Assembly: GCF_044324875.1 (NCBI RefSeq) | Contig: NZ_CP172185.1 | Origin: Escherichia coli | GTDB lineage: Bacteria; Pseudomonadota; Gammaproteobacteria; Enterobacterales; Enterobacteriaceae | Reading direction: 5' to 3' (one strand) | Length of the DNA stretch: 64,000 bases | Part shown: one piece after another, positions 6,001 to 9,000 of the stretch | Layout: each line of letters opens with the position of its first letter | How positions within the stretch are numbered: position 1 is the stretch's first letter | Made by a program: the position numbers

Positions 6001-9000
6001 GGAAAACAACTTCGGGCGAAACAGGCATTAAAGCTGGGGCTGGTGGATGACGTCGTTCCGCAATCCATTTTACTGGAAGCCGCTGTTGAGCTGGCAAAGC
6101 AGGATCGTCCATCTTCACGCCCTCTACCTGTACGCGAGCGTATTCTGGCGGGGCCGTTAGGTCGTGCGCTGCTGTTCAAAATGGTCGGCAAGAAAACAGA
6201 ACACAAAACTCAGGGTAACTATCCGGCGACAGAACGCATCCTGGAGGTTGTCGAAACGGGATTAGCGCAAGGCACCAGTAGCGGCTATGACGCTGAAGCC
6301 CGTGCTTTTGGCGAACTGGCGATGACGCCGCAATCGCAGGCGCTGCGTAGTATCTTTTTTGCCAGTACGGAAGTGAAGAAAGACCCCGGCAGTGATGCGC
6401 CGCCTGCGCCATTAAACAGCGTGGGAATTTTAGGTGGTGGCTTGATGGGCGGCGGTATTGCTTACGTCACTGCTTGTAAAGCGGGGCTTCCGGTCAGAAT
6501 TAAAGATATTAACCCGCAGGGCATAAATCATGCGCTGAAGTACAGTTGGGATCAGCTGGAGGGCAAAGTTCGCCGTCGTCATCTCAAAGCCAGCGAACGT
6601 GACAGACAGCTGGCATTAATCTCCGGAACGACGGACTATCGCGGCTTTGCCCATCGCGATCTGATTATTGAAGCGGTGTTTGAAAATCTCGAATTAAAAC
6701 AACAAATGGTGGCGGAAGTTGAGCAAAATTGCGCCGCTCATACCATCTTTGCTTCGAATACGTCATCTTTACCAATTGGTGATATCGCCGCTCACGCTAC
6801 GCGACCTGAGCAAGTTATTGGCCTGCATTTCTTCAGTCCGGTGGAAAAAATGCCGCTGGTGGAGATTATTCCTCATGCGGGGACATCGGCGCAAACCATC
6901 GCTACCACAGTAAAACTGGCGAAAAAACAGGGTAAAACGGCAATTGTCGTGCGTGACAAAGCCGGGTTTTACGTCAATCGCATTTTAGCGCCTTACATTA
7001 ATGAAGCTATCCGCATGTTGACCGAAGGTGAACGGGTAGAGCACATTGATGCCGCGCTGGTGAAATTTGGTTTTCCGGTAGGCCCAATCCAACTTTTGGA
7101 TGAGGTAGGAATCGACACCGGGACTAAAATTATTCCTGTACTGGAAGCCGCTTATGGAGAACGTTTTAGCGCGCCTGCAAATGTTGTTTCTTCAATTTTG
7201 AACGACGATCGCAAAGGCAGAAAAAATGGCCGGGGTTTCTATCTTTATGGTCAGAAAGGGCGTAAAAGCAAAAAACAGGTCGATCCCGCCATTTACCCGC
7301 TGATTGGCACACAAGGGCAGGGGCGACTCTCCGCACCGCAGGTAGCTGAACGGTGTGTGATGTTGATGCTGAATGAAGCAGTACGTTGTCTGGACGAGCA
7401 GGTTATCCGTAGCGTGCGTGACGGAGATATTGGCGCGGTATTTGGCATTGGTTTTCCGCCATTTCTCGGTGGTCCGTTCCGCTACATCGATTCTCTCGGT
7501 GCGGGTGAAGTGGTTGCAATAATGCAACGACTGGCCACGCAGTATGGTTCCCGTTTTACCCCTTGCGAGCGTTTAGTCGAGATGAGCAAGCGTGGGGAAA
7601 GTTTTTGGAAAACAACTGCAACTGACCTGCAATAAGAAGGTCAAAGCTATATGAATCCGCGCTGAATGGCGGAGTATTGCTCAAAATGTAAACGCATATT
7701 GACTATACTTACGCCATTGAGGTAAAAAACAGCGTTTCATTCGGTGAATGGATAAGGCACAATGCCGGCCACCGTTTTCTTTCTCTGGTTTCAGATGAAA
7801 GAAAACGGGCGAATCTGGTTAACAAAAGCGGTGCAATATGCAAGTTTTTATCATGCGTCACGGCGACGCAGCCCTCGATGCCGCCAGTGATTCGGTTCGT
7901 CCTCTGACTACTAACGGTTGTGACGAATCTCGCCTGATGGCGAACTGGCTGAAAGGTCAAAAAGTGGAAATCGAACGCGTTCTGGTGAGCCCGTTCCTGC
8001 GAGCCGAGCAAACACTGGAAGAAGTAGGGGATTGTCTGAACCTGCCTTCCAGTGCAGAAGTTCTGCCGGAGTTAACGCCCTGCGGCGATGTTGGTCTGGT
8101 CAGTGCCTATTTACAGGCGTTGACCAATGAAGGTGTTGCTTCGGTACTGGTGATCTCCCACTTACCCTTAGTCGGGTATCTGGTTGCTGAGTTATGTCCG
8201 GGCGAAACGCCGCCTATGTTTACCACCTCGGCCATTGCCAGCGTAACGCTTGATGAAAGCGGAAACGGCACATTCAACTGGCAGATGAGCCCGTGTAATC
8301 TGAAGATGGCAAAAGCGATTTAATACGCATGCACAAGGCCCGCTGGTGTAATCTATCGGGCCTTTATTTTTTTCTGGCAATGTTGAATTTATGCAATCTT
8401 ATTGTACTAACAATGATCCGCTTGTGATCGAATGGTCTTTATTTTATACGGCATGACGCTTTTATTTGTAAAAATTTACATATTGAAAGAGAATTTACTT
8501 TTATTCATAAATTATTTTTCTGGAAGCATTTTTAGGTAAATAATGACTAAAGTGAAAAATATTATTGGGTCTTGATTTTATATTAATTATAGTGTTTTAA
8601 TATTATATCGTTGCGAAATTAATATCACAAGATAGTCATCGCCATGTGATTGTTTTTGACTTTAATTTATTCACTGGATTTTTGCATTTGCCGTTTTTTT
8701 GAACTTATTCTTCATTATTGAGATGAAAAGTTTCAGTAATTATTATCCCCGCCTATTAATTAAGTTTTTCTAACTTTGAATGTTAGAAAATCTAAATTGC
8801 ATCAGTCATATTAAAATATCAACATGTTCGGCACGCCAAAGAATATTATATCAAGGAACCTGTTTTTTCAGGAGCTGACAATCTGTTCATTGGCTGCTTA
8901 AAAGTCGCTGTAAAAATTGAAGAAGCTCTGTGTCAATATTTCAGTTGGCTTATATTCTAATTATTTATGATTTAAGGACAAATAATGAGTAAGTTTGTAA

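What the first reader, a model, noticed from the sequence alone, without database searches (positions are those of the whole stretch)
7772..7808. Perfect 12-bp inverted repeat 30 bp upstream of sixA, not a canonical terminator
ccgttttctttc (7772-7783) and gaaagaaaacgg (7797-7808) are exact reverse complements separated by 13 nt. Neither strand has an adjacent U-run, and the element lies about 140 bp after the fadJ stop and about 30 bp before the sixA ATG. A perfect palindrome of this length in a short intergenic region suggests a dimeric regulator operator or an RNA structure in the sixA 5' leader. I do not recognise it as a described site.
Basis: seen in the sequence. Interest (0 to 1): 0.3.

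Follow-up and report, generated by a model that had tools for sequence, protein, structure and literature searches.

The report
Conserved RNA hairpin in sixA leader
The palindrome is real and encodes an RNA hairpin in the 5' untranslated leader of the E. coli sixA mRNA; related bacteria keep its shape but not its sequence, and published mapping shows a short leader RNA ending just after it, so it is an uncharacterised but fairly ordinary kind of RNA element rather than a protein-binding DNA site.

Summary
In detail: 7772-7783 and 7797-7808 are perfect 12-nt reverse complements, 137 nt after the fadJ stop and 29 nt before the sixA ATG, with no U-run. About 0.1 such repeats are expected by chance per window. 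The window is E. coli chromosome.

In about 80 Enterobacteriaceae species the flanks are almost invariant. The segment between them is unalignable between genera (36-59 nt) yet always folds into one hairpin, with compensatory changes within and between clades. The sense strand folds 5.5 kcal/mol better than the antisense strand. This indicates an RNA structure, not an operator.

Published SMRT-Cappable-seq puts the sixA start site at window 7734/7735, so the hairpin lies at +34..+76 of a 103-nt leader, after two invariant hairpins. Published Term-seq puts abundant RNA 3' ends at 7815 and 7817, 7-9 nt past the stem, giving an 81-83 nt leader RNA.

Best reading: a 3'-end-defining hairpin, most likely a leaky non-canonical terminator or attenuator. 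An exonuclease stop after cleavage is the main rival. How the end forms and what it regulates are inferred, not shown. No Rfam family or searched paper text describes it. It is a new member of a known kind, of moderate interest.

The parts
7699..7704 (+). sixA promoter -35 hexamer TTGACT
   Evidence: Invariant in 74 distinct orthologs. It lies 18 nt upstream of TAAAAA and at the correct distance from the published TSS. The assignment as -35 is inferred from geometry.
7723..7728 (+). sixA promoter -10 hexamer TAAAAA (non-consensus, lacks the final T)
   Evidence: T25, A27, A28 and A29 of alignment A1 are invariant. The hexamer ends 7 nt before the TSS at 7735. The simple sigma-70 scan missed it because it requires T at position 6.
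7734..7735 (+). Transcription start of the monocistronic sixA mRNA
   Evidence: SMRT-Cappable-seq Supplementary Data 2 lists b2340 with TSS 2456915 and 2456916, reverse strand (PMC6131387). Coordinates convert as window = 2464650 - K-12 coordinate, from locus L001, and were checked against the Term-seq flanking sequences.
7736..7752 (+). HP1: 5'-terminal hairpin UUCAUUC-GGU-GAAUGGA (7 bp), starting 1-2 nt after the TSS
   Evidence: Folds. Only the loop and the closing pair vary (AU:44, GU:24, GC:5). In Siccibacter a U.G pair becomes C-G.
7756..7766 (+). HP2: small hairpin GGCA-CAA-UGCC
   Evidence: Predicted. It is invariant apart from the loop, so covariation cannot test it.
7768..7810 (+). 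HP3: the hairpin of the finding (perfect core 7772-7783 / 7797-7808; inner pairs 7784-7787 / 7792-7795; optional outer GCC/GGC pairs)
   Evidence: Structure is conserved with hypervariable sequence in 76 distinct orthologs. Covariation is shown. The sense strand is preferred.
7811..7817 (+). 3' tail of the short leader RNA; mapped RNA 3' ends at 7815 (M63 glucose) and 7817 (LB OD 2.0)
   Evidence: Term-seq of Adams et al. 2021 (PMC7815308, suppl. files 1 and 3): 2456835 with 68,010 reads and 2456833 with 39,893 reads, minus strand, class 'orphan'.
7812..7837 (+). Invariant tail and sixA translation initiation region (..UCUGGUUAACAAAAGCGGUGCAAU)
   Evidence: Almost every column is invariant in 74 orthologs. 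It contains the ACA that the MazF-regulon paper reports as cleaved 16 nt upstream of the sixA start (PMC5001579).
7825..7848 (+). Predicted hairpin over the sixA start codon (AAAGC..UGCA-AUA-UGCA..GUUUU)
   Evidence: RNAalifold consensus on A1, columns 140-163, and single-sequence folds. All columns are invariant, so it is untested by covariation.
7838..8323 (+). sixA coding sequence (phosphohistidine phosphatase SixA, 161 aa)
   Evidence: ORF list and RefSeq annotation of the identical locus.

Best explanation
The inverted repeat is the DNA image of an RNA hairpin (HP3) in the 103-nt 5' untranslated leader of the monocistronic sixA mRNA. Transcription starts at 7734/7735 from a conserved TTGACT-18-TAAAAA promoter. 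The leader folds into two invariant hairpins (HP1 at the very 5' end, then HP2) followed by HP3. Evolution preserves HP3's shape and its G+C-rich base but not its sequence or length. HP3 defines the 3' end of an 81-83 nt leader RNA (7735 to 7815/7817). It most probably does so as a leaky, non-canonical intrinsic terminator or attenuator that splits transcription from the sixA promoter between a short leader RNA and full-length sixA mRNA. Shown here or in published data: the hairpin, its covariation, its strand, the TSS, the 3' ends, and read-through into sixA. Inferred: that the 3' end arises by termination rather than trimming, that the split is regulated, and that the invariant flanks are where a factor acts.
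For: All 76 distinct orthologous segments (36-59 nt) fold into a single hairpin of -12.8 to -37 kcal/mol; 62 of 76 have z < -2. Compensatory changes appear in plain MAFFT clade alignments: Escherichia CG:3/GC:3 and UA/UG/CG; Citrobacter-Salmonella AU:7/GC:6/GU:4; Enterobacter GC:14/AU:4/GU:2. In the model-guided alignment of 72 distinct rows, 94.1% of cells pair, against 77.4% when shuffled and 26-48% when the partner is slid. 14 of 15 pairs change on both sides. There are 162 double-change cells against 41.7 in shuffles, with 0 of 500 shuffles reaching any measure. The + strand folds better in 70 of 76 orthologs, by 5.5 kcal/mol on average, Wilcoxon p = 2e-13, with 199 G.U pairs against 73. 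The TSS is at 7734/7735 and the unit is monocistronic. Term-seq 3' ends lie 7 and 9 nt after the last stem pair in two growth conditions, with 68,010 and 39,893 reads; this is the usual geometry of intrinsic termination. No Rho-termination region is listed at this locus. The bottom pairs of the stem are G+C-rich and are its most conserved part, and the tail UUCUGGU is invariant outside Escherichia, as expected for a terminator base and tail. The delimited 83-nt RNA folds as three hairpins at -30.8 kcal/mol, z = -4.4.
Against: There is no U-tract. The E. coli tail score (-1.6 to -1.8) equals that of arbitrary sequence, and other genera are only marginal (mean -2.7, against -6.1 for a canonical tract). 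The terminator scan is negative in E. coli, Kluyvera and Phytobacter. Term-seq cannot tell termination from exonuclease trimming or a strong pause. The 3' end was not called in LB at OD 0.4, and no intrinsic-terminator or Rho score was published for it. No conserved antiterminator pairing was found. Only one TSS data set could be consulted. No northern blot or reporter data exist.
Confidence: 0.55

Rival explanations
1. Exonuclease barrier. The sixA leader or mRNA is cut in the single-stranded A/U-rich stretch downstream of HP3 (by RNase E, or by MazF at the ACA 16 nt before the ATG), or is terminated further on. 3'-to-5' exonucleases then trim back and stall a few nucleotides from the stable hairpin. 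On this reading HP3 is selected as a stability element, and the 81-83 nt RNA is a decay or processing product.
For: The lack of a U-tract fits this better than termination. MazF cleavage at -16 of sixA has been reported (PMC5001579). Adams et al. state that many 5'-UTR 3' ends arise by processing and that Rho-terminated ends are trimmed to structures. The 3' ends differ by 2 nt between conditions (7815 and 7817), as ragged trimming would give. Structure-only conservation suits any generic stable hairpin.
Against: No Rho-termination region is listed here. The invariance of the tail UUCUGGU directly after the stem is not needed for a pure exonuclease block. The 7-9 nt spacing fits termination equally well.
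Confidence: 0.25
2. Structural scaffold or insulator for translational control. HP3 is a variable stem of a larger structured leader. Its role is to hold the invariant 5' block (HP1, HP2) and the invariant tail and ribosome-binding region in a fixed geometry, or to keep them from mispairing, for a protein, a small RNA or the ribosome. The mapped 3' ends are incidental.
For: The flanks on both sides are nearly invariant across about 25 genera while only HP3 drifts, like the variable stems of known structured RNAs. A hairpin over the start codon is predicted, with conserved synonymous positions in codons 2-4. A helix GCCGG/CUGGU closing HP3 is predicted in three clades.
Against: The invariant helices cannot be tested by covariation. 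The GCCGG/CUGGU helix appeared only when HP2 was cut out of the input, and it is absent from folds of the full leader. No Rfam family matches. This reading does not explain why abundant 3' ends sit exactly 7-9 nt past the stem.
Confidence: 0.13
3. DNA operator. The palindrome is bound as double-stranded DNA by a dimeric transcription factor that controls sixA or fadIJ.
For: A perfect 12-bp palindrome in a short intergenic region.
Against: The half-site sequences are unrelated between genera and the spacing varies from 36 to 59 nt. Pairing is kept through G.U pairs on one strand only. The site lies at +38 to +74 of the transcript, not at the promoter. Genomic SELEX peaks reported near sixA concern the yfcV side or the fadJ body.
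Confidence: 0.02
4. Chance palindrome or a remnant of a mobile repeat (REP/BIME-like).
For: None beyond its palindromic form.
Against: 0.1 are expected per window. There is one copy per genome in 5425 of 5426 E. coli genomes. It sits at the same position in every genus examined, with covariation.
Confidence: 0.01

Closest known systems
3' ends in 5' UTRs and 5'-UTR-derived small RNAs of E. coli (e.g. ChiZ from chiP, IspZ) described by Adams et al. 2021 (PMC7815308)
   Same: The RNA starts at the mRNA's own TSS and ends inside the 5' UTR at a defined position seen by Term-seq, with read-through giving the full mRNA. This very 3' end is in their tables, as an unassigned 'orphan'.
   Different: It has not been characterised. 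There is no northern blot, no Hfq or ProQ data, no target, and no U-rich 3' tail of the kind Hfq-dependent sRNAs carry. According to the paper ChiZ is Rho-dependent, whereas no Rho region is listed here.
Intrinsic (Rho-independent) terminators and classical leader attenuators (trp, his, pyrBI type)
   Same: A stable stem with a G+C-rich base, RNA 3' ends 7-9 nt after the stem, a stem sequence that drifts with compensatory changes, and a location between promoter and coding sequence.
   Different: There is no U-tract, no leader peptide, and no identifiable antiterminator alternative. Termination itself is not demonstrated.
5'-terminal stabilising stem-loops such as the ompA 5' UTR hairpin (established knowledge, not tested here)
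   Same: HP1 begins 1-2 nt after the TSS, which is the geometry known to protect mRNAs from 5'-end-dependent RNase E attack.
   Different: This concerns HP1, not the hairpin of the finding. HP3 lies 34 nt into the transcript.
Palindromic operators of dimeric regulators
   Same: Perfect dyad symmetry in E. coli.
   Different: The sequence is not conserved, the length is variable, pairing is strand-asymmetric, and the site is inside the transcribed leader.

Membership tests
Canonical intrinsic terminator | Stable stem-loop with a G+C-rich base | tested here: met
   -22.3 kcal/mol in E. coli and -12.8 to -37 in orthologs. The bottom pairs are mostly C-G/G-C and are the most conserved part of the stem.
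Canonical intrinsic terminator | U-rich tract immediately 3' of the stem | tested here: not met
   Tail score is -1.6 to -1.8 in E. coli and averages -2.7 in other genera, against -6.1 for a canonical tract. At most 5 T occur in the first 8 nt. Scans are negative.
Canonical intrinsic terminator | RNA 3' end 7-9 nt downstream of the stem in vivo | tested here: met
   Published Term-seq ends at 7815 and 7817; the last stem pair is at 7808.
Canonical intrinsic terminator | Factor-independent release of RNA polymerase in vitro | not testable with these tools
   Needs in vitro transcription.
Palindromic operator of a dimeric DNA-binding regulator | Half-site sequence conserved among orthologous regions | tested here: not met
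   Arms are unalignable between genera while the flanks are invariant.
Palindromic operator of a dimeric DNA-binding regulator | Symmetry equal on both strands (no G.U versus A.C bias) | tested here: not met
   The + strand folds better in 70 of 76 orthologs, with 199 G.U pairs against 73.
Palindromic operator of a dimeric DNA-binding regulator | Protein occupancy in vivo or in vitro | not testable with these tools
   No ChIP data for this coordinate could be consulted. The SELEX peaks near sixA lie elsewhere.
5'-UTR-derived small RNA (ChiZ/IspZ kind) | 5' end at the mRNA's TSS and a discrete 3' end inside the 5' UTR | tested here: met
   TSS at 7734/7735 and 3' ends at 7815/7817, from two independent published data sets.
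5'-UTR-derived small RNA (ChiZ/IspZ kind) | Stable discrete transcript, chaperone binding and trans targets | not testable with these tools
   RIL-seq and CLIP supplementary tables are not held. No paper text mentions sixA together with sRNA, RIL-seq or UTR in this sense.
Leader-peptide attenuator / uORF | Conserved short ORF in the leader | tested here: not met
   The ORF from the conserved ATG at 7762 is 4-71 aa long, falls in all three frames relative to sixA, and only MP(A/G)(T/H) is shared.
Riboswitch or other described RNA family (Rfam 15) | Match to a curated covariance model | tested here: not met
   No hit overlaps 7636-7850 even at E <= 10.
Riboswitch or antiterminator-type attenuator | Conserved alternative pairing that competes with the terminator arm | tested here: inconclusive
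   The variable HP1 loop shows no consistent complementarity to either HP3 arm (inspection of A1). Atlantibacter has an alternative helix around HP2, but the evidence is too thin.
REP/BIME or other repeated extragenic palindromes | Many copies per genome | tested here: not met
   One place per genome in 5425 E. coli genomes. The model R1 finds no other credible copy in the window.

The most novel reading that the evidence does not exclude
The whole 103-nt sixA leader would be an undescribed Enterobacteriaceae-wide regulatory RNA. Its parts are a 5'-terminal HP1, HP2, the shape-only HP3, and an invariant tail and ribosome-binding region. It would act either as a factor- or ligand-sensing attenuator that sets the level of the SixA phosphohistidine phosphatase (which acts on ArcB and the nitrogen-PTS protein NPr), or as a source of an ~82-nt trans-acting small RNA lacking the usual U-tail, or as both.
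Probability: 0.3. Interest if true: 0.65.

Novelty: new member of a known kind. Interest (0 to 1): 0.42.

Why it matters
Regulation of SixA expression does not appear in the literature I could search; SixA trims phosphorelay signalling through ArcB and the nitrogen PTS. The analysis assembles a concrete, testable unit in E. coli K-12: a promoter, a 103-nt leader with two invariant hairpins, a covarying third hairpin, and an 81-83 nt RNA ending right after it. If the hairpin is a regulated attenuator, it gives a handle on when cells make SixA. If the short RNA acts in trans, it adds a conserved small RNA without a canonical terminator tail. It also illustrates how a stem-loop lacking a U-tract can still mark an abundant RNA 3' end. 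If it is merely a decay intermediate protected by a stable stem, it is ordinary.

Tried and rejected
- DNA operator: rejected on non-conserved arms, variable length and strand asymmetry.
- Chance palindrome: rejected.
- Known RNA family: no Rfam match at E <= 10.
- Canonical terminator: negative scans in three genera and poor tail scores.
- My first promoter guess, TATACT (7704-7709) as a sigma-S-like -10 with a TSS near 7716: dropped after the published TSS at 7734/7735 fitted TTGACT-18-TAAAAA instead.
- Small ORF from the conserved ATG at 7762, and the ATG at 7749: not conserved in length or frame.
- The 8-nt complementarity 7694-7701 / 7834-7841 over the start codon: the upstream arm is poorly conserved and lies upstream of the TSS, so it is chance.
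- Covariation between the variable HP1 loop and either HP3 arm (a possible antiterminator): no consistent pattern.
- RNAalifold on the all-genera MAFFT alignment could not see HP3, because the hairpins are unalignable by sequence. This was solved with clade alignments and a covariance model.
- Literature and data sets that gave nothing: Thomason 2015 and Ju 2019 are not held. Melamed 2016, Dar & Sorek 2018 and Grunberger 2022 have no held supplements. One over-broad text search was uninformative.
- The protein search reached only about 76% identity, so families outside Enterobacteriaceae were not examined. One locus look-up failed.
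Full report
**Observation.** The window is E. coli chromosome. fadI is at 4181-5491, fadJ at 5491-7635 and sixA at 7838-8323, followed by the yfc fimbrial genes. The 301-nt region is present once in 5425 of 5426 complete E. coli genomes, and nothing is annotated between fadJ and sixA. The inverted repeat is exactly as described: 7772-7783 CCGTTTTCTTTC and 7797-7808 GAAAGAAAACGG, 12 of 12 complementary, 13 nt apart. Perfect repeats of this size with loops of 3-30 nt occur 0.1 times per dinucleotide-preserving shuffle of the window; six distinct ones are present. 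As RNA the element folds at -22.3 kcal/mol (z = -4.3), with four extra pairs inside the nominal loop. No consensus promoter or terminator is found nearby, and no Rfam family matches at E <= 10.

**Comparative evidence.** A scan of one genome per species with SixA returned 80 loci from about 25 genera of Enterobacteriaceae. Upstream of sixA the pattern is striking. About 85 nt before the repeat (from 7688) and the 30 nt after it are almost invariant. The segment corresponding to the repeat is unalignable between genera and varies from 36 to 59 nt. Even so, all 76 distinct versions fold into one hairpin spanning the segment, at -12.8 to -37 kcal/mol. 62 of 76 have z < -2 against shuffles.

Compensatory changes are visible in ordinary MAFFT alignments within clades:
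- Escherichia: one pair is CG in 3 sequences and GC in 3; another is UA, UG and CG.
- Citrobacter/Salmonella: AU:7, GC:6, GU:4, and four further pairs with double changes.
- Enterobacter: GC:14, AU:4, GU:2.

A covariance model built on the Enterobacter clade aligned 72 distinct rows, one of them a spurious hit. On that alignment 94.1% of cells pair, against 77.4% after shuffling and 26-48% with the partner slid. 14 of 15 pairs change on both sides. There are 162 double-change cells against 41.7 expected. No shuffle out of 500 reaches any measure. That alignment is fitted to the structure, which is why the clade alignments matter as an independent check.

**RNA or DNA, and which strand.** The + strand folds better than its reverse complement in 70 of 76 orthologs, by 5.5 kcal/mol on average (Wilcoxon p = 2e-13), with 199 G.U pairs against 73. 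The sequences are phylogenetically related, so that p-value overstates independence. A double-stranded protein site would need conserved half-sites and would show no such bias. The structure is therefore selected in the sense-strand transcript.

**Transcript ends, from published data converted to window coordinates.** Locus L001 (strain CJ236, same length as MG1655) gives window = 2464650 - K-12 coordinate. The flanking sequences printed in the Term-seq tables confirm the conversion.
- SMRT-Cappable-seq lists sixA (b2340) as a monocistronic unit with TSS 2456915/2456916, which is window 7735/7734. fadIJ is a separate unit (PMC6131387, Suppl. Data 2).
- This TSS fits an invariant TTGACT (7699-7704), an 18-nt spacer and TAAAAA (7723-7728).
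- The finding therefore lies at +34..+76 of a 103-nt 5' UTR.
- Term-seq (PMC7815308) reports 'orphan' 3' ends at 2456833 (LB OD 2.0, 39,893 reads) and 2456835 (M63, 68,010 reads). These are window 7817 and 7815, 9 and 7 nt after the last stem pair.
- No Rho-termination region is listed there.
- In LB at OD 0.4 the called end is further upstream, at 7721 (32,337 reads, Rho score 1.02, intrinsic score 6.72).

**Anatomy of the leader.** The RNA from 7735 to 7817 (83 nt) folds as three successive hairpins at -30.8 kcal/mol, z = -4.4.
- HP1 (7736-7752) begins one or two nucleotides after the TSS. Only its loop and closing pair vary.
- HP2 (7756-7766) is invariant.
- HP3 (7768-7810) is the finding, followed by a 7-nt tail.
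- Downstream, the invariant stretch carries the ribosome-binding region and a predicted hairpin over the AUG at 7825-7848. It also carries the ACA that a MazF study reports as cleaved 16 nt before the sixA start.
- The same three-hairpin fold is predicted in Kluyvera, and in the centroid structure (not the minimum-energy one) for Enterobacter.
- HP3 with the tail UUCUGGU persists in the more divergent Atlantibacter and Siccibacter and in a locus whose SixA is 76% identical.

**Mechanism.** Several things are shown. HP3 is a conserved RNA structure in the sixA leader. Transcripts start 34 nt upstream of it. Abundant RNA 3' ends lie 7-9 nt downstream of it. Full-length sixA transcripts also exist. 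How the end forms is inferred.

I favour a leaky non-canonical intrinsic terminator or attenuator. The reasons are the spacing, the G+C-rich conserved stem base, the invariant tail, the typical terminator-like drift of the stem, and the absence of a listed Rho region. Against this, the tail is not U-rich: the TransTermHP-style score is -1.6 to -1.8 in E. coli, averages -2.7 elsewhere, and is -6.1 for a canonical tract. Terminator scans are also negative in three genera.

The main rival is exonucleolytic trimming back to a stable stem after cleavage downstream, which Adams et al. consider common. A third possibility is that HP3 is simply the variable stem of a larger structured leader that controls translation. 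The operator reading and the chance reading are effectively excluded.

**Comparison with what is known, and novelty.** The closest described class is the set of 5'-UTR 3' ends and 5'-UTR-derived small RNAs of E. coli (ChiZ, IspZ) from Adams et al. This very end sits in their supplementary tables, unassigned. No paper text in the library links sixA with a leader, UTR element, sRNA or attenuator, and Rfam has no model for it. It fails the U-tract criterion of canonical terminators and the leader-peptide criterion of classical attenuators. I therefore rate it a new member of a known kind. Interest is moderate, because the hairpin by itself may turn out to be a routine 3'-end-forming or stabilising stem. 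The more novel reading, that the whole leader is an undescribed regulatory RNA for the SixA phosphatase, is not excluded, and I give it about 0.3.

**Limits.**
- Only one TSS data set and one Term-seq study could be consulted.
- HP1, HP2 and the start-codon hairpin are invariant and so are untested by covariation.
- Taxa outside Enterobacteriaceae were not reached.
- Orthologs are phylogenetically related, so counts of sequences are not counts of independent events.

Noticed in passing
window 7663-7722: A long imperfect hairpin (about -23 to -25 kcal/mol) ends exactly at a published Term-seq 3' end (K-12 2456929 = window 7721; LB OD 0.4; 32,337 reads; intrinsic score 6.72). It is followed by an A-run, not a U-run. 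Its 3' arm contains the sixA -35 hexamer, so the fadIJ transcript end and the sixA promoter overlap. The strong pairing is largely specific to E. coli (mean -12.7 kcal/mol across all orthologs).
   Followed up: partly
window 7688-7694: The motif TGTAAAC, at about -47 to -41 relative to the sixA TSS, is nearly invariant across genera although the sequence around it varies. It may be an UP-like element or an activator site. No factor was identified.
   Followed up: no
window 7812-7848: The 26 nt before the sixA ATG and the synonymous positions of codons 2-4 (CAA GTT TTT) are almost invariant across about 25 genera. A hairpin enclosing the AUG is predicted. The ACA at about 7822-7824 matches the MazF cleavage reported 16 nt upstream of sixA (PMC5001579).
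   Followed up: partly
L083 (Atlantibacter) about 495-535: HP1 is disrupted, but a perfect 7-bp helix GGUCGGG/CCCGACC encloses HP2 instead. This hints at an alternative pairing between the 3' arm of HP1 and the sequence just 5' of HP3 (UGG/CCA in E. coli).
   Followed up: no
window 221-252, 1958-1986, 29802-29836, 42148-42194, 47821-47847: These are the five other perfect inverted repeats of at least 12 nt in the window. 221-252 is flanked by an A-run and a T-run (bidirectional-terminator-like). 1958-1986 is the fadL terminator hairpin on the minus strand, with a published 3' end at K-12 2462694 (window ~1956), also without a long U-tract. 47821-47847 has a U-rich minus-strand tail. 29802-29836 and 42148-42194 were not examined.
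   Followed up: partly
protein hits P0001, P0003-P0005, P0007, P0039: Several database SixA entries are 173-223 aa long instead of 161, apparently because gene callers chose in-frame starts inside the leader. These are probably annotation artefacts.
   Followed up: no
window 23267-23302 (minus strand): A weak hit of the HP3 covariance model (16.9 bits, E = 0.22). It is most likely an unrelated hairpin and was included as one row of alignment A5.
   Followed up: no
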